A DNA stretch of 49,488 nucleotides from Alphaproteobacteria bacterium (GCA_019238055.1 JAFAOB010000218.1:1-49488), one strand, 5' to 3'; counted from the stretch's first letter, positions 1 to 45,337 are shown. Notes: generated from the letters alone by a model not told the origin. Translations and numbers: made by a program.

Positions 1-166
1 GGGAATTATGGCGCGCATGGGCTTTGATGCGCAGGCCCGCAACGTTTCCTGGGAGATGTTCACCCGGCGCCACCGCGATGCGGCGATGATTGCAATCACC
101 GGGCTGGCGCTGGTTGGGCTGGCCGGTCTCTTTCGGAGGCGGGGCGGCGACAATTCAGCGACGAAA

Positions 167-469
167 TCAGAACTGGGGCAGGCCTCCCCGGCGGGTGGCA
201 TAGTCGGTCCAGGTCAGACCGTAGAGAAATAACAGCCAGAAAAACCCGCTGCCGGCGAAAATCCATTTGAGGCGCGGCGGGCCCTTCAATCGCATAAATA
301 GAATAAACAAGATCGAGGCTTGGGTCGCGGCGATGCCGTATTGAATGACAGGTGCATAAAGGCCGAGGCCGAGAAATGCGATCCAAATGCTGATCGCGGT
401 GAGCAGGATCATTACCAGCCAAGCGATAATATAGAGCAAGTTCGAGTCATGCTCGCTGGTGTTCTTCAT
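167..469 (-). CDS. small membrane subunit IV-like protein of caa3-type cytochrome c oxidase
   Basis: Internal Met (MKNTSEHDS..) of ORF 167..598. Its ATG overlaps the subunit III stop as ATGA at 466-469. About 100 aa with 3 hydrophobic helices, last gene of the oxidase operon. Confidence 0.6.
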   Translation of the reverse strand: MKNTSEHDSNLLYIIAWLVMILLTAISIWIAFLGLGLYAPVIQYGIAATQASILFILFMRLKGPPRLKWIFAGSGFFWLLFLYGLTWTDYATRRGGLPQF

Positions 470-1119
470 GACCGACCCACCAGATAAATCGACGGAAACA
501 AAAACAGCCACACCGTGTCGACAAAGCTCCAGTAGAGGCCGACCACCTCGAGTGGGGCATAATAGTCGGGAGTGATTTCGCCGCGCCGGATCCGCCACAG
601 CAGCATGTAAAGGACGAGTCCAACGCCGATCGTCAAATGAATGGCATGCAGGCCGGTACCGACCCAGTAAAACACCCAGAACAACTCGCCGGCCGGCGCC
701 TCTCCGGGCTTCATCTCAAAATTCGCGACCGGCACGACCTTATCGTTATAATCAAGGTTGTATTCATAACCTTTGATTCCGAGAAAACACATGCCGAGCG
801 CCGCGGTCGCAATTAGCCACCAGATCATCGCGCGGCGGCGTCCATCGGCCGCGGCATTGATTGCCAGCACCATTGTCAAGCTGCTGGTGATCAGGATTCC
901 GATATTGGCACTGCCGCACCACAAGACCGCGTCTCTTGCCGCGACATCGAATTCGTGTGAATAAAGAATCCGATAGATATAATACGTAAAAATCAACGTT
1001 CCGAAGAACAGCGTCTCGGTCGTGATGAAAACCCACATTCCGAGCTGGGCGGTATCACCCTGCTGCGACAGATCGGCATACTGAATCTCCGGCGAGATTG
1101 TGCGGCTAGACATAGGCAT
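466..1119 (-). CDS. cytochrome c oxidase subunit III
   Basis: 217-aa polytopic membrane protein (..WVFITTETLFFGTLIFTY.., ..GLHAIHLTIG..) directly downstream of subunit I. An alternative start lies at 1113. Confidence 0.88.
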   Translation of the reverse strand: MPMSSRTISPEIQYADLSQQGDTAQLGMWVFITTETLFFGTLIFTYYIYRILYSHEFDVAARDAVLWCGSANIGILITSSLTMVLAINAAADGRRRAMIWWLIATAALGMCFLGIKGYEYNLDYNDKVVPVANFEMKPGEAPAGELFWVFYWVGTGLHAIHLTIGVGLVLYMLLWRIRRGEITPDYYAPLEVVGLYWSFVDTVWLFLFPSIYLVGRS

Positions 1120-2749
1120 GTTTGACGCCGTCCTGGGTGATATAGCTGCCGTCTTCCGGGTTGTAAGAATAGGGGCCGAGCTTGACGGTTGGGGTCAGTT
1201 CCCAATTATGGGTCGGTGGCGGGGATGGCGTGGTCCATTCGAGGCCGGTTGCACCCCAAGGGTTGGGGCCGGCCCGCCTGCCGTAGAGCAAGGACCAGCC
1301 GAGATAAAACAGCGGCAACGCATAGGCGACCGCAAGGATCGAAGCCCCGGCGGAGGACAAAAGGTTCCAAGATTCCCACGCTGGCACATAAGTATAATAG
1401 CGCCGCGGCATCCCGAGATAACCAAGAATAAATTGCGGAAAAAAGGTTAAGTTGAACCCGACAAAAGTCAGCGTTGCAGCAAACCGCGCCCACGATTCCG
1501 GATAAAAGCGGCCGGTCATCTTTGGCCACCAGTAATGCAATCCACCGAAAAATGCGCTGACCGTGCCGCCGACCATGATATAATGAAAATGGGCGATGAC
1601 GAAATAAGTGTCATGCACGTGCACGTCGACGGCCAAGGTCGCGACGATCAACCCGGTCAGGCCGCCAATCGTAAACAGCAGGACGAAGCCGAGCGCGTAG
1701 AGCATCGGCGCGTCGAAGACGATCGAGCCTTTATGCAGGCTGACAGTCCAGTTGAAGACCTTGATCGCCGATGGCACTGCAACAAAAAAGCTCAATAACG
1801 AGAATACAACCGCCGAATATATCGAAATCCCAGCGACAAACATGTGATGTGCCCAAACAAAAAAGCTGATGATGGCGATTGCCATCAAGGCCATGACCAT
1901 CCCCAAATAGCCGAAGATCGGCCGCCGTGCGTAACAAGAGATCAGTTCACTGACAACACCCATTGCCGGCAGGATCATGATGTAAACCGCAGGATGAGAG
2001 TAGAACCAGAACATGTGTTGCCACAGTATTGGATCGCCGCCGCGCGACGGGTCGAACATGCCGACGCCGATGAATCGCTCGACACATAGCAAAAACATGT
2101 CCATGGCTAGGACCGGTGTCGCGGTTAGCATCACGATACTGACCGAGTACATCGCCCAGACGAACAGCGGTAACCGCAGCCAAGTCATCCCCGGCGCACG
2201 CAGCCGGTGGGTGGTCACGACGAAGTTCAGCGATGTCATGATCGACGAGAAGCCATTGATGAACACGGCCAGCGCCGCAGCGAATACATATCCACTTGCG
2301 TATTGCGTCGAATAGGGAGGATAGAAGGTCCAGCCGGTATCGATGCCACCCATAACGAGTGCATAGAGCAGAACGAGACCGGACAAGTTGAACACATACC
2401 AACTAAGCAGATTGACCCGAGGAAAGGCGAGGTCGTGCGCTCCGATCATCATCGGCAAGAAGAAATTGCCAAACGTGTTCGGAATTGACGGAATCAGAAA
2501 AAACCACACCATCATCACGCCATGTACTGTAAACATGCGGTTGTAAACCGAGGGCTGCAGCAGCCCCCCTGGCGTGGCCAAATGCAGGCGGATCATGGTC
2601 GCGGCAAAACCACCGATAAAAAAGAAAAACGTGATCGACGCGAAAAAAAGTAGGGCGATGCGCTTATGGTCTTTGGTGAACAACCAAGAGACGATCGTGT
2701 TTTCCTCGGTCGCATAATTGCGCGGCAGATCGATCGCGATCGTCGTCAT
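1106..2749 (-). CDS. ctaD: cytochrome c oxidase subunit I (heme-copper oxidase catalytic subunit)
   Basis: 547 aa with 12-TM architecture and hallmark motifs: FWFYSHPAVYIMILP, VWAHHMF, IAHFHYIMVGG. Confidence 0.97.
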   Translation of the reverse strand: MTTIAIDLPRNYATEENTIVSWLFTKDHKRIALLFFASITFFFFIGGFAATMIRLHLATPGGLLQPSVYNRMFTVHGVMMVWFFLIPSIPNTFGNFFLPMMIGAHDLAFPRVNLLSWYVFNLSGLVLLYALVMGGIDTGWTFYPPYSTQYASGYVFAAALAVFINGFSSIMTSLNFVVTTHRLRAPGMTWLRLPLFVWAMYSVSIVMLTATPVLAMDMFLLCVERFIGVGMFDPSRGGDPILWQHMFWFYSHPAVYIMILPAMGVVSELISCYARRPIFGYLGMVMALMAIAIISFFVWAHHMFVAGISIYSAVVFSLLSFFVAVPSAIKVFNWTVSLHKGSIVFDAPMLYALGFVLLFTIGGLTGLIVATLAVDVHVHDTYFVIAHFHYIMVGGTVSAFFGGLHYWWPKMTGRFYPESWARFAATLTFVGFNLTFFPQFILGYLGMPRRYYTYVPAWESWNLLSSAGASILAVAYALPLFYLGWSLLYGRRAGPNPWGATGLEWTTPSPPPTHNWELTPTVKLGPYSYNPEDGSYITQDGVKHAYV

Positions 2750-3699
2750 CGTGAGAACTCCTGGCTGCCGATCGATTGGATGTAGGCGACGAGCTTTAAG
2801 ATATTGTCTTCGCTGATCTGGCCGGCAAAACTCGGCATGACATTGGACGGATAACCGGCGGGAATTTGTTCATTCGGCATCAGGATCTTGTCGTGGATGT
2901 AGCGCTCATCTGCCCTGACGGCCCCCCCGTTCTGCAGGTGAACAATACTGCCGTAAAGACCGACCAGGGTCGGCGCATGCACGGTACTATTGGCGCCGTG
3001 GCAACCGCTGCAGCCGTACTGGCGGAATAGCGCTTCTCCCTGTAGCGCAAGCGATTCACGAATTCCGTGGGAGGTCAGCCACGCGGCATAGTCCGCTGGT
3101 GTCATAACGACGACGTAGCCCTTCATCGTCGCGTGCTGTACGCCGCAAAATTGGCTGCACTCGATCTGATAGGTGCCAGTTTTTGTGGCCTTGAACCAAA
3201 TCGTCTCATATGTGCCGCTCACCACATCGCGTTTGACGCGGAAAGCAGGCACAAAGAAACTGTGGATCACGTCCTGCGAGGCCATCACCAAGCGAATGGT
3301 TTTGTCGACCGGGACGTGCAATGTATCAATCTCGCGCTGGCCGCCCGGATGCTGGAACTTCCACATCCATTGCTTGGCGACGACATAGATTTCGATGTCG
3401 CCAGGCGGCGTTTTGAACAGCCAAATGTAGATCGAGGCTCCCCAGCAGAACAGCACGAGAAAGGCGACGAGCGTCGCGGTGGTCCAGGTGATTTCCCAAT
3501 GCCAGGTCTTTTTGACGCGGTCGGCGCGCGAGACGGTGCTGCCCTGGCGATAGCGGACGCAAAACGTCATCATCATGCCGACGACCATCGCTATGATCAG
3601 ACCGCAGAGACCCAGTTCGGCAATGTAGAGATTGTTGACGACGACCGCATTCAGGGCAGCGGTGCGCGGCCAAAACGGAACCCAATGATACTGATCCAT
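2746..3699 (-). CDS. coxB: cytochrome c oxidase subunit II with C-terminal cytochrome c domain (caa3-type)
   Basis: CuA site HSFFVPAF...CSQFCGVQHATM and a heme c CSGCHG motif near the C-terminus. Start taken at internal Met MDQYHW (3699), 6 nt after the SCO stop. The track's N-terminal extension overlaps the SCO gene. Confidence 0.92.
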   Translation of the reverse strand: MDQYHWVPFWPRTAALNAVVVNNLYIAELGLCGLIIAMVVGMMMTFCVRYRQGSTVSRADRVKKTWHWEITWTTATLVAFLVLFCWGASIYIWLFKTPPGDIEIYVVAKQWMWKFQHPGGQREIDTLHVPVDKTIRLVMASQDVIHSFFVPAFRVKRDVVSGTYETIWFKATKTGTYQIECSQFCGVQHATMKGYVVVMTPADYAAWLTSHGIRESLALQGEALFRQYGCSGCHGANSTVHAPTLVGLYGSIVHLQNGGAVRADERYIHDKILMPNEQIPAGYPSNVMPSFAGQISEDNILKLVAYIQSIGSQEFSR

Positions 3700-3704
3700 C
3701 GCTT

Positions 3705-4490
3705 TCAGCCGTGACGCCGCCGCATGATTGCCCCGAAGATGAAAATCAGCGCTGTCCCTGCGGCGATATTGCCAATCATCAGCGCCGCCACGACCGGGAC
3801 GGTATAGCGGCCGAGCGGCGTGCCTTCGATGTGACACAGCAACACCAGCCGCTCGAGCGGGCTCAGCGTTTGTCCGCGCGCTGCGTCGGCGAGCCCGGTG
3901 CTGAGATCGGACGCTGTAGGCCCGACCCCGAATATGTAGCGGCTGATCCGGCCGTCGCGACCGGCGAGGATAAAGCCGGCGGGATGGATATATTGGCCGG
4001 TGTCGGGATCGAACCGATAAGGAAAGCCGATCGTGTCAGCGATCTGCCGCGCCGCTTCGACCGAACCTCCCAGAAAGTGGACGCCGGCGGCGGTCCCGGG
4101 ATGGTGATAGAGGGCGAGATATTTCGCCTTCGCACGCGCCAAATCGGCAGGCTTATCGCGTGGATCGATGCTGATCGCCAGCATCTGAAAATCGCGTCCG
4201 GCATCGAGCGGCAGCGCGTCGAGCGCCGCGATGGTATTTTCCAGGGTCAGGCCGCACAGGGATTTGCAGCGCAGATATTCGAGAACCACCACGACCGGCT
4301 CTTTGCCGAAGAACTCTCCGAGCGTCATGGCGCCACCGTCCTCGGCATAAAGTGGCTCGGCGAGCGGCAGCCGTGCACCCGGATGCGGCCGAAAGGCGAA
4401 GGCTGCTGGGTCGACTGGCGAAGAAGCCTCCGCCATGCCGGCAGCGAACAGCGAAAGGCCAAATGAAAGCACGGCGACCATGCGCTTCAC
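3705..4490 (-). CDS. SCO/SenC family copper chaperone (thioredoxin fold) with signal peptide and C-terminal TM
   Basis: N-terminal signal MKRMVAVLSFGLSLFAAGMAEA, a CxxxC motif (RCKSLCG), and a position between ACIII and the oxidase genes. Confidence 0.82.
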   Translation of the reverse strand: MKRMVAVLSFGLSLFAAGMAEASSPVDPAAFAFRPHPGARLPLAEPLYAEDGGAMTLGEFFGKEPVVVVLEYLRCKSLCGLTLENTIAALDALPLDAGRDFQMLAISIDPRDKPADLARAKAKYLALYHHPGTAAGVHFLGGSVEAARQIADTIGFPYRFDPDTGQYIHPAGFILAGRDGRISRYIFGVGPTASDLSTGLADAARGQTLSPLERLVLLCHIEGTPLGRYTVPVVAALMIGNIAAGTALIFIFGAIMRRRHG

Positions 4491-4861
4491 GGCTGCCCCT
4501 TTGGAAAACCGTCAATGCCCGACTGAGCGAGTTTTTTCATCGCCTGTTCGATCGGGATGTGCACGATTCCTTTCGCTTTATCGATCCAGTAATAAGTGTT
4601 GAGACGCTGATCCTCATGCAGGCGAAAGCTTTTCAGGTCCAGCTGTGGATCGATTTGCAACTCTGGGGACGGCGGTTTGATAAGCAGCTTGCGGCTGACA
4701 TCCGTTACCGAGTTTGGATAAGCCGCCCATAAAACGAAGGGGATAATGACTAAAAAGACAAAAATCCCAATGTAAACAAAGCTGACTTTGTCAAGCGGCC
4801 AATCCTCCTGTTCATAGGCGGCCTGAGGATTGTCGTGCTTTACGTCCGCCACATCAGCCAT
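4487..4861 (-). CDS. uncharacterised single-TM membrane protein of the ACIII-oxidase operon (positional ActG-like)
   Basis: ORF 4487..4891 with start chosen at MADVADV (4861), giving an 8-nt overlap with the actF stop and a 4-nt overlap with the SCO start. One TM helix (VSFVYIGIFVFLVIIPFVLWAAY). I recognise no motif. Confidence 0.55.
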   Translation of the reverse strand: MADVADVKHDNPQAAYEQEDWPLDKVSFVYIGIFVFLVIIPFVLWAAYPNSVTDVSRKLLIKPPSPELQIDPQLDLKSFRLHEDQRLNTYYWIDKAKGIVHIPIEQAMKKLAQSGIDGFPKGQP

Positions 4862-38582: not shown

Positions 38583-39875
38583 ATGGCCAATGTCGCCGTC
38601 GTCGGCGCTCAATGGGGTGACGAGGGCAAAGGCAAGATCGTCGACTGGCTATCGGAGCGAGCCGATGTCGTGGTGCGCTTTCAGGGCGGCGCCAATGCCG
38701 GACACACGATCGTCATCGGCAATGTCGAATACAAGCTCAGCCTGCTGCCGTCCGGAGTCGTGCGGCCTGGCAAAGTATCGATTATCGGCAATGGCGTTGT
38801 CGTCGATCCTTGGGCCCTGATCGACGAGATCGAAGCGATCCGCGAAAAGGGGGTTGAGGTTACCCCGGAAAATCTGAAGCTCGCCGACAACGCCGCGCTG
38901 ATCCTGCCGTCGCACGGCGCGCTCGACCGGGCGCGCGACGCGCGCAGCGGCGCCCTGCGGATCGGCACCACCGGCCGCGGCATCGGTCCGGCCTACGAGG
39001 ACAAAGTCGGCCGCCGGGCAATCCGGGTGTGCGATCTCGCCGACCCGGCAGCGCTGGAGTCGCGGCTCGAGCTGCTGTTATTACACCACAATGCGTTGTT
39101 GCGTGGGCTCGACCAGCCGGAAATCGATCGCAGCGAACTGGCCGCCAAGCTGCGCGCTGTGGCGCCACGCATTTTACCTTATGCGGCGCCCGTATGGCGG
39201 GTGCTCGACGAGGCGCGCCGCGGCGGTCGCCGCATCCTGTTCGAGGGCGCGCAAGGGGCGATGCTCGATGTCGACCACGGAACCTACCCGTTCGTGACCT
39301 CGTCAAATGCGCTGGCCGGTCAGGCCGCAGCCGGATCGGGCATCGCGCCGAGTGCCATCGGCTATGTCCTCGGCATCACCAAGGCCTATACCACCCGCGT
39401 CGGAGCGGGGCCGTTCCGGACGGAACTTAGCGACGCAATCGGCGAGACGCTGGGTGAGCGCGGGCGCGAGTTTGGTGTTGTTACCGGCCGCAAGCGGCGC
39501 TGCGGCTGGTTTGACGCGGTGATGGTGCGCCAAGCGGTCAAGACCGGCGGGGTCGACGGTATCGCCCTGACCAAGCTCGACGTGCTCGACGGGTTTGAGG
39601 AGGTCAAGATCTGCACCGCCTATCGACACGGCGCGACGATCTACGACTATCTCCCGAGCGGAACTTCCGCCCAGGCCGAGATCGAGCCGATCTATGAAAC
39701 CGCGGAAGGCTGGCGCGAGAGCACGCGCGGTGCACGATCCTGGGCCGATCTGCCGGCAACCGCGATCAAATACATCCGCCGGCTGGAAGAGCTGATCGGC
39801 GCGCCGGTGGCCTTGTTATCGACCAGTCCCGAGCGTGACGACACGGTGTTGGTCCGCGACCCCTTCGCCGACTAG
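38583..39875 (+). CDS. purA: adenylosuccinate synthase
   Basis: [35 protein letters not shown], 430 aa. Confidence 0.97.
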
Positions 39876-41599: not shown

Positions 41600-41781
41600 C
41601 TGCGTCCTCATCCTGAACCTGCAGTGCGGATTACCGATTATCGATCGGGTGCCGCCGCCGTACAAGCGAACTGCCGTCAATCGCAGCGCGGTGGGCGCCA
41701 AGACAGACCGAGACGAGCCCTTCAAAAAGCTCTCTTCAGCCGAGCAATTTACGTTAAAAGAGTCCTGAAGGAGAAGTCCTG

Positions 41782-41901
41782 GTGAATAATTCGTTGATTT
41801 TTTGCATCTTGCAACCGAGCCGTGGAGCGCGCGAAACTAGATCGCCTCGGCAGCGGATGAATGGATTGAGGGATGGGACGCCAACCAGTCTCGTTACGTA
41901 A
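41782..41901 (+). CDS. candidate 39-aa leader/precursor ORF overlapping the nucleotidyltransferase start
   Basis: My own read: strong SD AAGGAGA (41768-41774), 7 nt before a GTG at 41782. It encodes MNNSLIFCILQPSRGARETRSPRQRMNGLRDGTPTSLVT* and overlaps the ATG at 41873 by 29 nt. Not in the ORF track because it is under 60 aa. Confidence 0.25.
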   Translation: MNNSLIFCILQPSRGARETRSPRQRMNGLRDGTPTSLVT

Positions 41902-43144
41902 ATACGGGATCGACCCCTCCCCAGAATTCTTGCTGGTCCTTTATTGCGCCCGAACTGCTCCAGACTCCGAGATCCAGGCCAGCCTAGCCGGGTTGGCGAA
42001 GCAAATCACCGACTGGGATTACGTGTTCCATTTCGCGGAAGAGCAAGGAGTTTTATTATTTCTATTACATAATCTTTATCGGACTGTTTGCGCGCCGTTG
42101 CCGCAGACTTTGCTAACCAGTGTCAGACGACGTTATGCTTCACGAAGCCAATCACTGCTGGTTCAACTTCGCGAGGTTACTTCACTCCTTGCTGTGCATG
42201 GCATAAGGGCGATCTCCTATAAAGGGCCGACATTGGCGACAATTGTTTACCCGCACTGCAACTTGCGTGTCTCAAGCGACTTGGATCTTTTAGTGCACGC
42301 GAGTGATTACCGGAATGCTTCAAAGGTCCTTTTAGACCAGGGCTATTTAGCAGCCGAGGATTGTGGCTATAAGTGCCACTTATGGCATCCTATCAAGCGG
42401 ACCGACGTCGATCTTCATAGAGCCCTGGCTCCGAGATGGTATCAATTCAGATTCAATTTCGATCGCGCATGGGAACGAGCAGTTCGGCTCACAATACCCA
42501 ATGGAGGTGTGACCGTTACATTTGGCTTAGAGGATTTACTGATCGTGCTGTGCGTCGATCTCGTTAAAGATATCGCACAACCATGGAATTTTCGGCTCGT
42601 GAAATTAACCGATATTGCTGAACTCATCGACAATATCGAGCACATTAACGTGTCTGCGCTGATCGACCGCGCGAAGTCCATTGGTCTCAGTCGGATAACG
42701 CTTTTTGGGCTCCTCCTTACAGATCGCATACATTCGGTAAGCCTGCCTGCTGTAATCCAAGAACAGATTCAGCTGTATTCTCCTCGTTTGCACAAACTTG
42801 TCGACCTAACGATGCGTCTGATGCTTGATGAGAAATCATCAAAGCGACAACCAACGCCAAAATTTCCACATGAAGTAAGGACAATCCTTAATTTACAGGA
42901 TAACCTCTGGCAGAAATTGTGTGTTATTGCCCTTTATATGGTCAGGCCAGTGATGCTTATTAGTAAATACGGGTTCGCAAGGGTCACAAAGTTCTTTCAG
43001 GCATTCTGGTGGATCAAAGAACGGGCACGGCTCTGCGAAGCGGGCCGATTTGCAAAACCGATCAGACGCAAACCTGAAGCGCGGTCGTCGGCAGAAGTTA
43101 AACTTAATACCGATATAGGGCTCCGGTCAAAAAATACGTCTTGA
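41873..43144 (+). CDS. nucleotidyltransferase family protein (NTP_transf_5 / PF14907-like)
   Basis: 423 aa. PEFLLVLYCART.., ..YKGPTLA..., NLRVSSDLDLLVHASDYRNASKVLLDQGY matches the DxD nucleotidyltransferase signature of this family. An in-frame TGA at 41867-41869 fixes the 5' limit. Confidence 0.75.
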   Translation: MGRQPVSLRKYGIDPSPEFLLVLYCARTAPDSEIQASLAGLAKQITDWDYVFHFAEEQGVLLFLLHNLYRTVCAPLPQTLLTSVRRRYASRSQSLLVQLREVTSLLAVHGIRAISYKGPTLATIVYPHCNLRVSSDLDLLVHASDYRNASKVLLDQGYLAAEDCGYKCHLWHPIKRTDVDLHRALAPRWYQFRFNFDRAWERAVRLTIPNGGVTVTFGLEDLLIVLCVDLVKDIAQPWNFRLVKLTDIAELIDNIEHINVSALIDRAKSIGLSRITLFGLLLTDRIHSVSLPAVIQEQIQLYSPRLHKLVDLTMRLMLDEKSSKRQPTPKFPHEVRTILNLQDNLWQKLCVIALYMVRPVMLISKYGFARVTKFFQAFWWIKERARLCEAGRFAKPIRRKPEARSSAEVKLNTDIGLRSKNTS

Positions 43145-43248
43145 AAAGTTGAAAAATCCCGTCAATATCATCTTCGCTGAGATGTACGGGGGCATTTTTC
43201 TTGAACGCCGGAGAACTTTACAACAAAGTTAATACGGGTCGGAGAGAG

Positions 43249-44163
43249 ATGCCGGACGTGATTGGACTGCAGAGCCCAACAATGGCGGCCTTTGTCCTAG
43301 CATTTGAATGTTACGGCGCCCGCGTCGGCGTCAGTACCAATGAAGCCAGCATCTTTGATCTTCTGCCGAAGTATCTGCCAGTCAAATCTGACCTGATCAG
43401 CCTCTCAGCCGTCGAGAACAAGTTTACACTCTTGAAGGGTGACCCGGCCAGCAGCTCGGGCCGAGATGGCGCGTACTGTCTTTATGACAGTGAATGTTTG
43501 GTGTTAAGTACATCGGATCTCCATGTCGCTTTGGAACAACTGGCGAGCGAACTGGATGCGGTGGTCGCACTCGAAGCATCACCCTCGCTCTTTGTCCATG
43601 CCGGTGTTGTAGGCTGGCGCGGTGGTGCCATCGTCATTCCTGGGCGCAGTATGACCGGGAAGACCTCGCTGGTCATGGAATTAGTAAGGACTGGGGCGAC
43701 CTATTACTCGGACGAATACGCGGTATTCGATAGGCAAGGTCAGATACACCCGTTTCCGAGGCCGATGCATCTTCGCACGGGTGAGCTGGGAAGATGGCAG
43801 AAAATCACCGCCGAGAGTCTCGGCAGTCATGTTGGGACCGGTGCCCTTCCGGTGGCTTTGGTTGTCGCTACTCAGTACGACCCGCGGGCGCGTTGGAGCC
43901 CAAAGCTCCTCGAGCCGGGGCAGACCGTACTTCGACTCTTCGACAATACAGTTGACGCCTTGCGACGCCCAGAGGACGCGATCGATATTTTCGCCAGAGT
44001 GGCAGCCGGTTGCGTTGCGATTACCGGCGCACGGCCTTCATCAGAGCAAGTCGCGCCGTTCCTATTAGCACTTTGTGCCCAAACAACTCAAAGTAGGGCT
44101 TTCGCGGAACCTTCGGAATGCTATTCCGATTTTAATCTCGACCCCCTCCCCACTAACCCCTAA
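43249..44163 (+). CDS. HPr kinase/phosphorylase-related P-loop kinase (HprK-related kinase type)
   Basis: VHAGVVGWRGGAIVIPGRSMTGKTSLVMELVRTGATYYSDEYAVFD parallels the HprK Walker-A region (G.SG.GKS...L...G..L..DD). ATG 43249 lies behind GGAGAGAG. The track start is a TTG at 43201. Confidence 0.75.
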   Translation: MPDVIGLQSPTMAAFVLAFECYGARVGVSTNEASIFDLLPKYLPVKSDLISLSAVENKFTLLKGDPASSSGRDGAYCLYDSECLVLSTSDLHVALEQLASELDAVVALEASPSLFVHAGVVGWRGGAIVIPGRSMTGKTSLVMELVRTGATYYSDEYAVFDRQGQIHPFPRPMHLRTGELGRWQKITAESLGSHVGTGALPVALVVATQYDPRARWSPKLLEPGQTVLRLFDNTVDALRRPEDAIDIFARVAAGCVAITGARPSSEQVAPFLLALCAQTTQSRAFAEPSECYSDFNLDPLPTNP

Positions 44164-44179
44164 CGACGGAAAGGCAGAG

Positions 44180-44650
44180 ATGCCATACAAACCAGAAGTG
44201 CGGCGAGACGAATTGACGATAAGGGAAGTCCAAGACGAGTTGGTTGTGTACGATGGCCGTGAAAAACGCGCCCATCGTCTCAATAAGACGGCCGCGCCAA
44301 TCTTGCAGGCCAGCGATGGCTCGCGAACCGTCGATCAGATCGCAGCTTTGTTGTCCGATGATATGGATATTAAGGATAGAACAGAGTTGGTCTGGTTGAC
44401 ACTACAGGATCTGTCTAAGGTGGGTCTTTTAACCGCCGCGATCCCGTCGGGACATGTGGATCGATCGCGCCGCAATCTACTACAAAGGGCAGCAGTTATC
44501 GGCCTCACTCTGCCAGTTGTTGAGTCGATCGTTGCCCAGTCTGCAACAGCCCATGCCTCGGATCCGAGGCGATATGAGCATCGGGAACATCATTCTCATC
44601 GAGATTTCGATCATCATCGAGATTTCAATCGAGACAGGGATCGGGATTAA
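44180..44650 (+). CDS. PqqD/RRE-family peptide-binding domain fused to a Tat-signal-like segment and a His/Asp/Arg-rich repeat tail
   Basis: 156 aa from MPYKPEV. Residues 8-90 are PqqD-like (LVVYDGREKRAHRLNKTAAPILQASDGSRTVDQIAALL...LQDLSKVGLL). Residues 96-126 are SRRNLLQRAAVIGLTLPVVESIVAQSATAHA. Residues 127-156 are SDPRRYEHREHHSHRDFDHHRDFNRDRDRD. Confidence 0.75.
   Translation: MPYKPEVRRDELTIREVQDELVVYDGREKRAHRLNKTAAPILQASDGSRTVDQIAALLSDDMDIKDRTELVWLTLQDLSKVGLLTAAIPSGHVDRSRRNLLQRAAVIGLTLPVVESIVAQSATAHASDPRRYEHREHHSHRDFDHHRDFNRDRDRD
44597..44632 (+). repeat. tandem 18-nt coding repeat in the tail of the PqqD-fusion gene
   Basis: CATCGAGATTTCGATCAT / CATCGAGATTTCAATCGA encode HRDFDH / HRDFNR. 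Confidence 0.8.
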
Positions 44651-44822
44651 GAAATTGGCGCGAGCCCAGTAATGTGGAACAAGAACAGGGACTCCATCAG
44701 GGATAGCGCCATCACAGGTATCCCAGGGTAACTCTCAAGCATCGACAGCTTAACTCGTTCGCGCGCAAATAGGCGCGCAATCGTCGAGCTGGTCGCAGTC
44801 GAGTGCTGTTACGACACTGCCG

Positions 44823-45337
44823 TCACCGACTGCGGCGCTCAGAGTTGCCACCCGGTTGGGCAATGTTGCCGCTGAGCGCCAAATGCAGCAGCGGCACGGC
44901 GGGATCGATTACCAGCGGCAGCGGCCGGTACGAAACCTGGAGGCGTTCGCGCGCATCCAACGCGGTGAAGCTATAGCCGCCGCACGCCAAAACCGCTGCG
45001 GCCGGCTCGCCGACATAGCGCACGCGATCGACCGCGAGGCAATAATGCTCGATCGACGCTTGACTGCGGCCGTGAGAGGCTGCGTCCAGCGCCGGCATCT
45101 TCGGGATAATGGCCATGACCCTTGAGAGAACCGATGCCGCTACAATGTTGCTGGAAAGCAACTTGGCAAGCAGATGCGGCGAGCGCAGGATCCCCCATGG
45201 AAGGCCCCCGCTTTGAGCGGCAAGTCGTCGCCGAAGCGGCCGCAGCCGCACAGGAGGCCGGGATCCTTGATGCGCGCGAGCGGCCGCCCAAGATAAGACC
45301 GGGACAAAGCGATGGCGGGTCGGATCGAGATCGTCAT
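44823..45337 (-). pseudogene. 5' fragment of a xanthine dehydrogenase/aldehyde oxidase family molybdopterin-binding subunit gene, frameshifted and truncated
   Basis: Two track ORFs in different frames join into one N-terminus: MTISIRP..LGRPLARIKDPGLLCGCGRFGDDLPLKAG | GILRSPHLLAKLLS...LAVDRVRYVGEPAAAVLA...DARERLQVSYRPLPLVIDP. This matches the G.P..R.ED.RLL.G.G.Y.DD / RSPHAHA / VRYVGEP pattern of the family. About 170 of roughly 750 expected residues remain. Confidence 0.7.

What the first reader, a model, noticed from the sequence alone, without database searches (positions are those of the whole stretch)
41720..44740. Low-GC three-gene peptide-modification islet (NTP_transf_5 nucleotidyltransferase + HprK-like kinase + PqqD/RRE) with no cyclase, protease, radical SAM enzyme or exporter
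About 3 kb of visibly AT-richer DNA lies between the SDR gene (start 41599, -) and a broken xanthine-dehydrogenase-family gene (44823-45337, -). A 60-nt sample at 42061-42120 has 28 G+C, against 40/60 at 38641-38700. The segment carries three co-directional, tightly spaced genes. The first is a 423-aa protein with the 'uncharacterised nucleotidyltransferase' signature (..SSDLDLLVHASDY..). The second is a roughly 305-aa protein with an HPr-kinase-type P-loop (GRSMTGKTSLVMELVRTGATYYSDEYAVF). The third is a PqqD/RRE-type peptide-binding protein. Kinase, NTP_transf_5 and PqqD are known together as tailoring or recognition genes of some lasso-peptide clusters (paeninodin type, where the kinase phosphorylates the precursor C-terminal Ser). 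From memory, unverified, they also form the functionally uncharacterised 'HPr-rel-A' neighbourhood defined in TIGRFAMs. This locus has no Asn-synthetase-like lasso cyclase, transglutaminase-like leader protease, radical SAM enzyme, ABC exporter or annotated precursor. It therefore reads as a self-contained recognise / phosphorylate / nucleotidylate module whose substrate and product are unknown. It is the strongest candidate in this window for an undescribed system.
Basis: partly seen in the sequence, partly recalled or inferred. Interest (0 to 1): 0.8.

Follow-up and report, generated by a model that had tools for sequence, protein, structure and literature searches.

The report
Self-carrying exported-peptide module (kinase, nucleotidyltransferase, RRE-precursor)
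A 3-kb foreign-looking DNA islet encodes a kinase, a nucleotidyltransferase and a protein that joins a peptide-recognition domain, an export signal and a short variable histidine-rich tail, so the unknown substrate of this widespread uncharacterised system is probably that third protein itself.

Summary
At about 41,760-44,800 a low-GC islet (GC 0.515 against 0.615) carries three co-directional genes under purifying selection. They are an NTP_transf_5 nucleotidyltransferase (41873-43144), an HPr-kinase-fold P-loop kinase (43249-44163) and a PqqD/RRE protein (44180-44650). No lasso cyclase, leader protease, radical SAM enzyme or exporter is nearby here, and none is consistently linked in 88 related loci.

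The interpretation needs one major correction. The third gene is not a bare RRE. It is an RRE domain, then an internal twin-arginine (Tat-type) signal-like segment (S-R-R-N-L-L-Q, hydrophobic stretch, A-H-A), then a 29-residue His/Asp/Arg-rich tail. This fusion is conserved across phyla: at least 703 clusters at 50% identity. Its tails are hypervariable, mostly Cys-rich and knottin-like with even Cys counts, and sometimes (DH)n or poly-His. Tandem paralogues are 92-97% identical in the N-terminal part and 15-19% in the tail.

The islet therefore most likely encodes its own substrate: a precursor that carries its RRE in cis, is acted on by the kinase and the nucleotidyltransferase, and whose tail is exported. 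The chemistry is inferred only.

The closest curated relative is the uncharacterised HPr-rel-A system, but scores fall well below its cut-offs. I found no literature on this architecture.

The parts
41760..44800 (.). Low-GC islet holding the three genes. The left border is fixed to 41716-41760. The right border is only approximate, about 44750-44820.
   Evidence: GC is 0.515 against 0.615, and tetranucleotide distance is the highest in the window. The close relative L169 loses homology at about 41759, after an IS630-type insertion at a TA. L171 diverges at about 41715. L001, L170 and L172 carry the islet.
41873..43144 (+). NTP_transf_5 nucleotidyltransferase, 423 aa, with the G..SDLDLL (DxD) motif intact.
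   Evidence: PF14907 E 2e-44, covering 3-246 of 249 profile positions. dN/dS against L001 is 0.19. No NCBIfam, PDB-sequence or PADLOC match.
43249..44163 (+). HPr-kinase/PEPCK-fold P-loop kinase, 304 aa (Walker A GRSMTGKT; conserved YYSDEYAVFD).
   Evidence: TIGR04352 E 1e-9 but 37.8 bits against a cut-off of 200. AF2 pLDDT 87.1. Foldseek top hits are HprK/P 1ko7, 1kkl and 1jb1, E 1.5e-5 to 3e-5. More than 2184 homologous 90% clusters exist. dN/dS is 0.21.
44180..44650 (+). Fusion protein of 156 aa: RRE domain, internal Tat-type signal-like leader and variable tail. It is the probable precursor or substrate.
   Evidence: PF05402 E 8e-6. Alignments A2 and A3. A profile search finds 703 representative clusters at E<=1e-30 that cover both RRE and leader. 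dN/dS is 0.39.
44180..44434 (+). RRE (PqqD-like winged-helix) domain, residues 1-85.
   Evidence: AF2 pLDDT is 83-89 with strands 12-17, 20-25 and 30-34 plus three helices. The best PDB fold matches are lasso B1 RREs bound to leader peptides, 6jx3_B and 5v1u (TM 0.84, rmsd 1.9-2.0 A).
44459..44560 (+). Leader: DRSRRNLLQRAAVIGLTLPVVESIVAQSATAHAS (residues 94-127). It comprises a twin-arginine motif (R97-R98 at 44468-44473), a hydrophobic region with invariant P112 and S116, and A-H-A followed by S.
   Evidence: In 216 homologues R97 is 100% and R98 99% conserved, P112 99.5%, S/T96 96%, S/T116 98% and S/T127 87%. [ST]RRx-hydrophobic-hydrophobic matches 174 of 208, and 152 of 208 also have K/R/Q/H next. 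TIGR01409 TAT_signal_seq scores E 0.066 here (below cut-off) and hits 14 of 65 homologues. AF2 predicts a helix at 90-107 and a beta strand at 114-118.
44561..44647 (+). Variable tail DPRRYEHREHHSHRDFDHHRDFNRDRDRD (residues 128-156). It is His/Asp/Arg-rich, has no Cys, and is predicted disordered.
   Evidence: Clade relatives have tails of the same composition but different sequence and length, for example L085 DPREWDHHHHHHHHH and P0183 (DH)n. pLDDT is below 50.
44596..44630 (+). 18-nt tandem duplication inside the tail-coding region (HRDFDH / HRDFNR).
   Evidence: Tandem Repeats Finder: period 18, 1.9 copies, 94% matches.

Best explanation
The islet is a horizontally acquired, self-contained member of a large uncharacterised family of 'RRE-in-cis' exported-peptide modules.

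Gene 3 is the substrate. Its N-terminal RRE domain stays in the cytoplasm. An internal twin-arginine signal-like leader follows; its 'LPVVESIVA' segment probably docks as a beta strand on the protein's own RRE, as RiPP leaders do in trans. The short C-terminal tail is the cargo delivered outside the cytoplasm. In this window the cargo is a 29-residue His/Asp/Arg-rich, probably metal-binding, peptide. In most relatives it is a disulfide-rich, knottin-like mini-protein.

The HprK-fold kinase and the NTP_transf_5 enzyme act on the precursor in the cytoplasm. By analogy with the lasso tailoring pair, the kinase would phosphorylate a conserved Ser/Thr (candidates S96, S116, S127), and the nucleotidyltransferase would add a nucleotide or sugar to that phosphate. 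Either step could mature the peptide or gate its export. Export and cleavage after A-x-A would then release the tail.

Shown computationally:
- gene content
- conserved synteny
- the fusion architecture
- the conserved leader and hypervariable tail
- purifying selection
- absence of lasso genes

Inferred: export route, cleavage, acceptor residue and the chemistry of both enzymes.
For: 1. The fusion is universal in the family. The leader motif never occurs as a separate small ORF in 88 loci; it always lies at least 99 codons after the previous stop, that is, after an RRE.
2. RRE and leader are equally conserved (mean pairwise identity 0.46 and 0.45), while the tails cannot be aligned.
3. Tandem paralogues are 92-97% identical in RRE plus leader but 15-19% in the tail (L052, L063). 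This is the pattern of precursor cassettes.
4. Tails point to an extracytoplasmic fate. Cys counts are even in 51 of 52 and in 95 of 107 Cys-containing tails, often in the C-C-CC-C-C pattern. Membrane MauE plus thioredoxin fusion proteins sit beside the trio in two unrelated lineages, and in one case the kinase itself is fused to thioredoxin-like domains.
5. The twin arginines are invariant, 152 of 208 sequences match the Tat consensus S/T-R-R-x-hydrophobic-hydrophobic-K/R/Q/H, RR to A-x-A is a median 32 residues, and Tat-signal HMMs give hits.
6. The AF2 model has an RRE fold matching lasso B1-leader complexes, plus an extra strand at 114-118 that can only pair with the RRE sheet.
7. Kinase and NTP_transf_5 are linked in 60 of 62 evaluable loci, and both plus the fusion are present in 39.
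8. dN/dS is 0.19, 0.21 and 0.39 for the three genes.
9. HprK homologues and such nucleotidyltransferases are shown experimentally to phosphorylate, and then glycosylate, lasso precursors (PMC8498205).
Against: - There is no experimental evidence of any kind.
- The Tat-like signal is internal, a median 96 residues from the N-terminus, which is atypical. It could be a plain N-in/C-out membrane anchor.
- The window protein's TAT_signal_seq score is below the cut-off.
- 21 of 62 evaluable loci have kinase and nucleotidyltransferase but no fusion protein nearby, so the enzyme pair can work with something else.
- A few fusion proteins have almost no tail (L087, P0146, P0151, P0205).
- The cis-docking strand is predicted at only moderate confidence (pLDDT 62-69), and the coordinates could not be inspected.
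- The lasso precedent targets a C-terminal Ser, which is not conserved here.
Confidence: 0.5

Rival explanations
1. Gene 3 is a membrane-anchored adaptor, not a substrate. The RRE domain, tethered to the inner membrane by the hydrophobic segment, recruits an unidentified peptide or protein encoded elsewhere to the kinase and nucleotidyltransferase. The periplasmic tail is incidental or regulatory.
For: Tail-less or nearly tail-less members exist. 21 of 62 loci lack the fusion. In canonical RiPP systems RREs bind leaders in trans (established knowledge; 6jx3 and 5v1u).
Against: The tails diversify like cargo: even Cys counts, knottin-like frameworks, and tandem paralogues differing only in the tail. 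Disulfide-handling MauE-thioredoxin neighbours would have no role. No candidate trans substrate is conserved next to the trio, and no small ORFs occur in the window's intergenic regions.
Confidence: 0.2
2. The kinase and nucleotidyltransferase belong to cell-envelope or exopolysaccharide biogenesis, for example modifying a surface protein or glycan. The PqqD fusion is an accessory sensor or regulator.
For: In Pyrinomonadaceae, Capsulimonadaceae and others the pair lies beside Wzy_C, GT4 and WecA-like glycosyltransferases, epimerases, Wzz/tyrosine-kinase-like proteins and exosortase EpsH/EpsI. A PEP-CTERM-like protein sits between the kinase and the fusion in L004.
Against: The window islet and its clade (L001, L085, L087, L172) have no envelope genes around them and move as a bare trio. 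The EPS association follows lineage: the downstream neighbours in the same loci are housekeeping genes.
Confidence: 0.12
3. The trio is the residue of a lasso-peptide cluster that lost its A, B2 and C genes.
For: Kinase, NTP_transf_5 and a B1-like RRE all occur in Firmicute and proteobacterial lasso clusters. One relative (L002) has a Transglut_core3 gene about 10 kb away.
Against: No Asn-synthase-like or Transglut_core3 cluster recurs among 88 loci. Every gene cluster found on the kinase strand in at least 9 loci, plus ten of the rarer ones near the kinase, was annotated, and none is a lasso gene. The RRE is fused to a conserved leader and tail that lack lasso precursor features. The genes are under purifying selection.
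Confidence: 0.03
4. The islet is decaying, non-functional imported DNA.
For: It lies in a rearrangement-prone spot next to a broken XDH-family gene. IS elements sit at or inside the module in relatives L169, L085 and L087. The NTase C-terminus differs by a frameshift between the window and L001.
Against: All three ORFs are intact in the window, L001 and L172. dN/dS is 0.19-0.39, similar to the flanking housekeeping genes at 0.08-0.21. Catalytic motifs are intact.
Confidence: 0.03

Closest known systems
HPr-rel-A system (NCBIfam/TIGRFAMs TIGR04352 HprK-related kinase A plus TIGR04353 'HPr-rel-A system PqqD family peptide chaperone'). It is curated but functionally uncharacterised.
   Same: It has the same protein families in one neighbourhood, and these models are the best NCBIfam matches for the window kinase and PqqD domain.
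   Different: Scores are far below the equivalog cut-offs: 37.8 against 200 bits and 24.7 against 35 bits. The homologue in L005 reaches only 66.9 bits. The TIGR04353 model covers only a 74-residue PqqD domain. Whether true HPr-rel-A members carry the RR leader and tail was not tested. I found no paper on the system.
Lasso-peptide tailoring pair: HprK-homologue kinases (paeninodin type) and the nucleotidyltransferase of pseudomycoidin, working with the B1 RRE.
   Same: An HprK-fold kinase, an NTP_transf_5-type enzyme and a B1-like RRE occur together. The RRE fold here matches B1 proteins best (TM 0.84). The precedent chemistry is Ser phosphorylation, then hexose transfer to the phosphate (PMC8498205).
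   Different: There is no cyclase, B2 protease, exporter or lasso-type precursor. The RRE is fused to the putative substrate rather than acting in trans. No C-terminal Ser is conserved. A twin-arginine signal-like leader is present.
SynChlorMet cassette (ScmC, HprK-like, TIGR04249/PF27840; ScmD, PqqD-like, TIGR04248).
   Same: It is another cassette pairing an HprK-like protein with a PqqD-like protein. 56 of 65 fusion proteins give weak ScmD hits, and some kinase homologues carry precomputed PF27840 hits.
   Different: The cassette is defined (from my own knowledge of TIGRFAMs) by two radical SAM/SPASM enzymes, which are absent here. All scores are far below the cut-offs.
Tat (twin-arginine) signal peptides, their dedicated chaperones (TorD/DmsD), and the Tat-exported, disulfide-rich methylamine dehydrogenase small subunit that needs MauE/MauD (established knowledge).
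   Same: The S/T-R-R-x-hydrophobic-hydrophobic-K motif, a moderately hydrophobic region and an A-x-A site are all present. A signal-binding domain that could hold the signal until maturation is analogous to TorD. MauE-thioredoxin genes lie beside the Cys-rich variants.
   Different: The signal is internal, about 96 residues from the N-terminus, and far more position-specifically conserved (P112, S/T116) than ordinary signal peptides. The putative chaperone is fused in cis. Tat dependence is untested.
RiPP precursors with large conserved leader domains and hypervariable cores (NHLP/Nif11-type, prochlorosin-like), and signal-peptide-bearing RiPPs such as bufferins (own knowledge).
   Same: They share a long conserved N-terminal part, hypervariable C-terminal cores and multiple tandem paralogues per locus.
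   Different: Here the leader domain is itself an RRE. The accompanying enzymes are a kinase and a nucleotidyltransferase, not a lanthionine synthetase, cyclodehydratase or MNIO enzyme.

Membership tests
NTP_transf_5 (PF14907) | Score above the Pfam gathering threshold over most of the model. | tested here: met
   152.5 bits against 31.2, covering profile positions 3-246 of 249.
HPr kinase/phosphatase superfamily (fold level) | HprK/PEPCK-type P-loop fold with an intact Walker A motif. | tested here: met
   The AF2 model has pLDDT 87. Top Foldseek PDB hits are HprK/P (1ko7, 1kkl, 1jb1; E about 1e-5, prob 1.00), followed by PEPCK. GRSMTGKT is present.
HPr kinase C-terminal domain (PF07475), sequence family | Score above the Pfam gathering threshold. 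| tested here: not met
   13.1 bits against 33.3, E 0.069.
HPr-rel-A system | The kinase passes the TIGR04352 equivalog cut-off. | tested here: not met
   37.8 bits against 200, with only profile positions 84-160 of 280 matched.
HPr-rel-A system | The PqqD protein passes the TIGR04353 equivalog cut-off. | tested here: not met
   24.7 bits against 35.
HPr-rel-A system | An HprK-like kinase and a PqqD-like protein are co-located. | tested here: met
   The genes are adjacent, separated by 17 nt. The linkage is conserved across phyla.
Lasso peptide biosynthetic cluster | An Asn-synthetase-like lasso cyclase (C) is present. | tested here: not met
   None lies within 10 kb in the syntenic relative L001 with precomputed Pfam annotation. 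None is among the recurrent neighbour clusters in 88 loci.
Lasso peptide biosynthetic cluster | A transglutaminase-like leader protease (B2, PF13471) is present. | tested here: not met
   It is absent near the window islet and L001. It was seen once, about 10 kb away, in L002.
Lasso peptide biosynthetic cluster | A B1-type RRE is present. | tested here: met
   The fold matches 6jx3_B and 5v1u with TM 0.84.
RiPP precursor (generic) | A conserved leader is followed by a hypervariable core, often in several paralogous copies. | tested here: met
   Leader identity is 0.45 while tails cannot be aligned. Paralogues are 92-97% identical in the N-terminal part and 15-19% in the tail.
RiPP precursor (generic) | The core is demonstrably post-translationally modified. 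| not testable with these tools
   This needs mass spectrometry of the expressed product.
Tat signal peptide | The twin-arginine consensus S/T-R-R-x-F-L-K is followed by a hydrophobic region and an A-x-A site. | tested here: met
   The window has S-R-R-N-L-L-Q...A-H-A. RR is invariant in 216 sequences, and 152 of 208 match the extended consensus.
Tat signal peptide | TIGR01409 TAT_signal_seq scores above its cut-off. | tested here: not met
   13.6 bits against 16.7 in the window protein. 14 of 65 homologues hit at E<0.1, best 9e-4.
Tat signal peptide | The signal is at the N-terminus. | tested here: not met
   RR lies a median 96 residues from the N-terminus, after a folded RRE domain.
Tat signal peptide | Export depends on TatABC. 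| not testable with these tools
   This needs genetics (delta-tatC, RR to KK).
Knottin / inhibitor cystine knot mini-proteins | Six Cys in a C-C-CC-C-C framework. | tested here: not met
   The window tail has no Cys. Many relatives do have this framework, for example L005 CLGSGASCTSSAQCCSGACNVNVC. 25 of 65 tails have 6 Cys. Their fold was not modelled.
Known anti-phage defence systems (PADLOC-DB 2.0) | Any of the three proteins matches a model. | tested here: not met
   No hits at E<=0.01.

The most novel reading that the evidence does not exclude
This is a new class of ribosomal exported peptides whose precursors carry their own RRE in cis, fused to an internal Tat-type signal. The RRE holds the signal or leader (like a built-in TorD-type proofreading chaperone) until an HprK-like kinase and an NTP_transf_5 enzyme have phosphorylated and nucleotidylated or glycosylated a conserved Ser/Thr. 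Only then is the hypervariable cargo exported and cleaved off. The cargo is a bacterial knottin-like mini-protein in most lineages and a His-rich metal-binding peptide in this window's clade.
Probability: 0.25. Interest if true: 0.9.

Novelty: new variant of a known kind. Interest (0 to 1): 0.72.

Why it matters
If the reading is right, it would matter in five ways.

1. It would give a likely substrate to a widespread, cross-phylum gene trio of unknown function. The kinase has more than 2,000 clusters at 90% identity. The fusion protein has at least 700 clusters at 50% identity. Both are almost all annotated 'hypothetical'.
2. It would show a RiPP-like logic in which the recognition element is part of the substrate.
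3. It would link cytoplasmic phosphorylation or nucleotidylation to an internal twin-arginine export signal, a possible new form of export proofreading.
4. It would reveal a large, minable reservoir of bacterial disulfide-rich, knottin-like peptides and His/Asp-repeat peptides, each with a built-in genomic marker: RRE, then SRR, then LPVVxSIVAPTPAxA.
5. It would make the function of NTP_transf_5 and the non-lasso HprK-like kinases directly testable with a three-gene construct.

Tried and rejected
- **'ScmC' literature.** Some kinase homologues carry a precomputed PF27840 'ScmC' hit. Two full-text searches found nothing relevant. NCBIfam shows that ScmC is the SynChlorMet cassette protein. PF27840 is not in the local Pfam copy.
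- **Other literature.** Searches on PF14907, HprK-related kinase, HPr-rel-A, SynChlorMet, PqqD with twin-arginine, RRE with HPr kinase, and PqqD with knottin returned only lasso-peptide papers or nothing. The absence covers only the open-access library.
- **Empty-site test with DAO.** I used the downstream DAO gene in JGI metagenomes. Relatives at 75-85% identity are not syntenic upstream, so the test was uninformative. I replaced it with members of the PurA 90% cluster, which worked for the left border only.
- **Right border.** No comparison was available. It rests on the GC step only.
- **Mobile-element signatures.** No flanking direct or inverted repeats, tRNA genes or Rfam families mark the islet.
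- **Separate precursor.** No additional small ORF looks like a separate precursor, either in the islet's intergenic regions or, by leader-motif scan, in any of the 88 loci.
- **PDB sequence searches.** Searches with the kinase profile and the NTase found nothing.
- **Promoter and terminator scan.** Nothing exceeded chance.
- **PADLOC.** No hits.
- **Host taxon.** I did not determine it. The genome-collection scan returned only relatives at 45% identity or less, from other phyla.
- **Searches not run.** The third homologue search and the third fold search were left unused, because neither would have changed the verdict.

Full report
**1. What is in the sequence**

Three co-directional ORFs fill the interval:
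- 41873-43144, 423 aa
- 43249-44163, 304 aa from the ATG that follows GGAGAGAG; a TTG at 43201 would give 320 aa
- 44180-44650, 156 aa, preceded by GGAAAGG

The spacers are 104 nt (43145-43248) and 16 nt (44164-44179). A second public contig encodes an identical kinase and has the same 423/304/156-aa gene calls.

Its two 60-nt G+C counts are exact, 28/60 and 40/60.

Composition is clearly distinct:
- Islet GC is 0.515 against 0.615 for the rest of the window. Other 2.9-kb windows have mean 0.615, sd 0.026 and minimum 0.545.
- GC3 is 0.50-0.59 in the islet genes against 0.70-0.79 in PurA, the methyltransferase, the SDR and DAO.
- The islet windows have the largest tetranucleotide distance in the window.

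**2. Family assignments**

- Gene 1 is a solid NTP_transf_5 (PF14907, E 2e-44, nearly full length) with the DxD motif intact.
- Gene 3 has a PqqD domain above Pfam's gathering score (E 8e-6).
- Gene 2 is only faintly HprK-like by sequence. PF07475 gives E 0.069. TIGR04352 'HprK-related kinase A' gives E 1e-9 but 37.8 bits against a cut-off of 200. A PDB sequence search finds nothing.
- An AlphaFold model of gene 2 built on 18 homologues (pLDDT 87.1) has HPr kinase/phosphatase structures as its best PDB fold matches (1ko7, 1kkl, 1jb1; E 1.5e-5 to 3e-5, probability 1.00). PEP carboxykinases, which share that fold, follow.

The assignment 'HprK-fold P-loop kinase' therefore stands at fold level. 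None of the three proteins reaches any NCBIfam equivalog cut-off, and none matches PADLOC.

**3. Is it an islet, and is it alive?**

A 93%-identical relative (L001, 83-kb ENA soil contig) has the same trio in the same place between the SDR and the DAO gene.

Against that relative, dN/dS is 0.19 for the NTase, 0.21 for the kinase and 0.39 for the PqqD protein. The flanking genes give 0.08-0.21. The genes are maintained by selection.

Two other contigs with at least 90%-identical PurA share the PurA-methyltransferase-SDR block but lack the islet:
- In L169 an IS630-type element sits in a TA at window position about 41751. Seven bases after the element, homology ends at about 41759, and an MprF-like gene follows.
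- L171 diverges at about 41715.

This fixes the left border at 41716-41760, which coincides with the GC step. The right border, about 44750-44820, rests on GC alone. It abuts a genuine pseudogene fragment of a xanthine-dehydrogenase-family gene.

No tRNA gene, Rfam family or terminal repeats mark the islet. In more distant members of the same clade, transposase genes or fragments lie inside the module (L085, L087).

**4. Neighbourhood survey**

The kinase family is large. More than 2,184 clusters at 90% identity pass E<=1e-3, and nearly all are unnamed.

I collected 88 loci: 80 from a scan of GTDB species genomes and the rest from contig look-ups. They come from Acidobacteriota (mainly Pyrinomonadaceae and Blastocatellia), Cyanobacteria, Gemmatimonadota, Armatimonadota, Chloroflexota, Methylomirabilis, Entotheonella and others.

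I clustered all ORFs and annotated every cluster found on the kinase strand in at least 9 loci, plus ten of the rarer clusters near the kinase. HMM-based scoring followed.

- Of 62 loci with at least 3 kb on both sides, 60 have an NTP_transf_5 gene within 6 kb, 41 have the PqqD protein, and 39 have both.
- The usual order is kinase, PqqD, NTase. The window's clade has NTase, kinase, PqqD.
- No Asn-synthetase-like cyclase, Transglut_core3 protease, radical SAM enzyme or ABC exporter recurs. The single Transglut_core3 seen lies about 10 kb away in one cyanobacterial locus.
- The remaining recurrent neighbours are lineage-specific. They include TPR proteins, Wzy_C, glycosyltransferases, epimerases and exosortase in some loci, and housekeeping genes downstream.

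The 'remnant of a lasso cluster' refutation condition is therefore not met. The trio, or at least the kinase-NTase pair, is a unit in its own right.

**5. The key finding: gene 3 is a fusion**

The PqqD proteins of this family are typically 160-220 aa, not about 90. All share one plan:
- an RRE domain
- a short linker
- an invariant S/T-R-R followed by a hydrophobic stretch with a conserved L-P-V-V-x-S/T-I-V-A-P-T-P-A-x-A
- a C-terminal tail

In the window this reads ...GHVDRSRRNLLQRAAVIGLTLPVVESIVAQSATAHA | SDPRRYEHREHHSHRDFDHHRDFNRDRDRD.

Conservation in 216 aligned members:

| Position | Conservation |
|---|---|
| R97 | 100% |
| R98 | 99% |
| P112 | 99.5% |
| S/T96 | 96% |
| S/T116 | 98% |
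| S/T127 | 87% |

Match to a Tat signal:
- 174 of 208 match [ST]RRx-hydrophobic-hydrophobic, and 152 of 208 also have K/R/Q/H next. That is the Tat consensus S/T-R-R-x-F-L-K.
- RR to A-x-A is a median 32 residues.
- Tat-signal HMMs hit 14 of 65 members (TIGR01409) and 13 of 65 (formate_TAT). The window protein is just below the cut-off.
- The signal is internal, a median 96 residues from the N-terminus.

A profile of the window's clade, searched against 1.84 billion representative proteins, finds 703 clusters at E<=1e-30. All of the top 150 align across both RRE and leader, and 143 of 151 inspected carry the RR...P..S/T-I..P motif.

The leader motif never appears as a separate small ORF in any of the 88 loci. 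It is always fused behind an RRE.

**6. The tails behave like cargo**

RRE and leader are equally conserved (mean pairwise identity 0.46 and 0.45), but the tails cannot be aligned. About two thirds are Cys-rich.

- Cys counts are even in 51 of 52 Cys-containing tails in one set and in 95 of 107 in the other.
- The commonest type has six Cys in the C-x6-C-x5/6-CC-x3-C-x5-C arrangement typical of inhibitor cystine knots, for example CLGSGASCTSSAQCCSGACNVNVC. The fold itself was not modelled.
- Other tails are low-complexity: (DH)n in P0183, poly-His in L085, and Lys/His/Pro-rich, GK, GQGS or PKPP repeats.
- The window's clade consistently has His/Asp/Arg-rich tails of varying length and sequence. 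An 18-nt tandem duplication lies in the window's tail-coding region.
- Six loci have two fusion-protein genes (five in tandem; in L054 the second copy lies about 3 kb away on the opposite strand). In two cyanobacterial loci the tandem copies are 92-97% identical through RRE and leader but only 15-19% identical in the tail.
- Membrane MauE domains fused to thioredoxin/AhpC-TSA domains lie next to the trio in cyanobacteria and, independently, in Blastocatellia. In a Chloroflexota locus the kinase itself is fused to thioredoxin-like domains.

From established knowledge, MauE and MauD serve the Tat-exported, disulfide-rich small subunit of methylamine dehydrogenase. All of this argues that the tail ends up outside the cytoplasm and is the variable 'payload'.

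**7. Structure of the gene-3 protein**

The AF2 model (31-sequence alignment, pLDDT 72.6) shows:
- a confident RRE fold at residues 1-85 (pLDDT 83-89)
- a helix at 90-107 covering the RR motif and the start of the hydrophobic region
- a five-residue beta strand at 114-118 (ESIVA; pLDDT 62-69)
- a disordered tail

The best PDB fold matches of the model are lasso B1 RREs crystallised with their leader peptides (6jx3_B and 5v1u; target-normalised TM 0.84, rmsd about 2 Å). The only sheet available to the extra strand is that of the RRE. The model therefore suggests that the conserved leader segment docks on the protein's own RRE, as RiPP leaders do in trans. I could not inspect the coordinates, so this remains a moderate-confidence inference.

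**8. Mechanism proposed**

Shown computationally:
- a mobile three-gene unit under selection
- a kinase-NTase pair that is almost always linked
- a third protein that joins an RRE, a Tat-type signal-like leader conserved at specific positions, and a hypervariable tail with signs of an extracytoplasmic fate

Inferred:
- The RRE stays in the cytoplasm and binds its own leader and/or recruits the two enzymes.
- The HprK-fold kinase phosphorylates one of the conserved Ser/Thr residues (S96 next to RR, S116 in the docking strand, or S127 just after A-x-A).
- The NTP_transf_5 enzyme elaborates that phosphate. The precedent is the lasso pair: the kinase phosphorylates a Ser of the precursor before folding, and the nucleotidyltransferase adds hexose to the phosphate (PMC8498205).
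- The modified precursor is inserted or exported, by Tat or as an N-in/C-out anchor, and signal peptidase releases the tail.

For this window the released product would be a peptide of about 29-30 residues rich in His, Asp and Arg, plausibly a periplasmic or secreted metal-binding peptide. I put 0.5 on this overall picture, about 0.6 on 'gene 3 is the substrate and its tail is exported', and about 0.3 on the specific chemistry.

**9. Rivals**

- Membrane-anchored adaptor for a substrate encoded elsewhere: 0.2.
- Envelope or EPS-linked function of the enzyme pair: 0.12.
- Lasso remnant: 0.03.
- Decaying DNA: 0.03.

The main facts against the best explanation:
- 21 of 62 loci, chiefly a Pyrinomonadaceae type, have the kinase and NTase but no fusion protein.
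- A handful of fusion proteins are almost tail-less.
- The signal is in an atypical internal position.
- The lasso-type acceptor, a C-terminal Ser, is not conserved.

**10. Comparison with what is known**

The closest curated entity is the uncharacterised HPr-rel-A system (TIGR04352/TIGR04353). The window proteins resemble it but fail both cut-offs, so I do not file the islet as a member.

It works most like the lasso tailoring kinase and nucleotidyltransferase with a B1 RRE, but it lacks every defining lasso gene. The SynChlorMet cassette (ScmC/ScmD) is a further distant relative.

I found no paper in the searchable library that describes an RRE fused to a Tat-like leader and variable tail, or this trio outside lasso clusters. 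That library covers open-access papers and bioRxiv only, so prior description elsewhere cannot be excluded.

**11. Verdict**

Novelty is 'new variant of a known kind': an RRE-guided peptide system with known tailoring families, but with the RRE in cis, an internal twin-arginine leader and no class-defining cyclase or protease.

Interest is 0.72. The system is widespread and unstudied, it has a clear three-gene test, and it offers a large set of knottin-like and His-rich peptides to mine. All functional statements remain inference.

Noticed in passing
window 44823-45337 (-): This is a pseudogene remnant of a xanthine-dehydrogenase/aldehyde-oxidase-family gene. Only the Ald_Xan_dh_C hammerhead domain remains (E 5e-7), split over two frames, and its GC is native-like (0.62-0.66). 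It is also present, more degraded, in L001.
   Followed up: partly
L169 13170-14290; window about 41751-41759: In a close relative that lacks the islet, an IS630-type element (HTH_33 + DDE_3) sits in a TA exactly at the islet's left junction, and the SDR gene is frameshifted (196 + 68 aa). The junction appears to be a rearrangement hot spot.
   Followed up: partly
window 43060-43144 vs L001 9780-9887: The C-terminus of the NTP_transf_5 protein differs between the window (423 aa) and L001 (409 aa) because of a frameshift. The window's last residues ...AEVKLNTDIGLRSKNTS are encoded in another frame in L001.
   Followed up: no
L005-L084, 'kinase-NTase only' loci (e.g. L006, L007, L012): About 30 loci, mostly Pyrinomonadaceae, have the kinase and NTase without the PqqD fusion. 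A TPR plus carbohydrate-binding-domain protein of about 426 aa lies directly upstream. A secreted protein of about 215 aa lies further upstream; it has no Pfam or NCBIfam hit and ends in a Gly-run, a hydrophobic segment and 'NPSP'. This may be an alternative substrate.
   Followed up: partly
L002 11599-12570; L063 12151-13065; L065 8285-9844; L015 (P0098): MauE membrane domains fused to thioredoxin/AhpC-TSA/Redoxin domains lie next to the trio in cyanobacteria and Blastocatellia. One kinase (463 aa) is itself fused to thioredoxin-like domains.
   Followed up: partly
L004/L008 11059-11874 and 13523-15072: In a Capsulimonadaceae genome a 271-aa protein with a weak PEP-CTERM motif (E 0.021) lies between the kinase and the PqqD fusion. 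Exosortase EpsH/EpsI genes follow the NTase.
   Followed up: no
A3/A2 alignments, window residues 33 and 45: Most family members have Cys at 'HCLN' and 'CDG' in the RRE domain (C45 in 186 of 216). The window clade has R33 and S45 and also has Cys-free tails. The link is not strict: P0142-P0148 keep C45 with Cys-free tails.
   Followed up: partly
L087 6762-7667; L085 4553-4759: Transposase genes or fragments (ISAZ013-type DDE in L087; an IS4-like fragment in L085) lie between the NTase and kinase genes in more distant members of the window's clade. The L087 fusion protein ends exactly at the A-x-A site, with no tail.
   Followed up: no
window 1-4500: A cytochrome c oxidase gene set (COX3, COX1, COX2-cytochrome c fusion, SCO1/SenC) has moderately low GC (0.535-0.56) and the second-highest tetranucleotide distance in the window. 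This is probably a membrane-protein composition effect.
   Followed up: partly
OZ252291.1 (L061 and L066): One Gemmatimonadales chromosome carries two separate copies of the kinase / PqqD-fusion / NTase module, about 376 kb apart. In L061 the NTase is seen only as short fragments.
   Followed up: no
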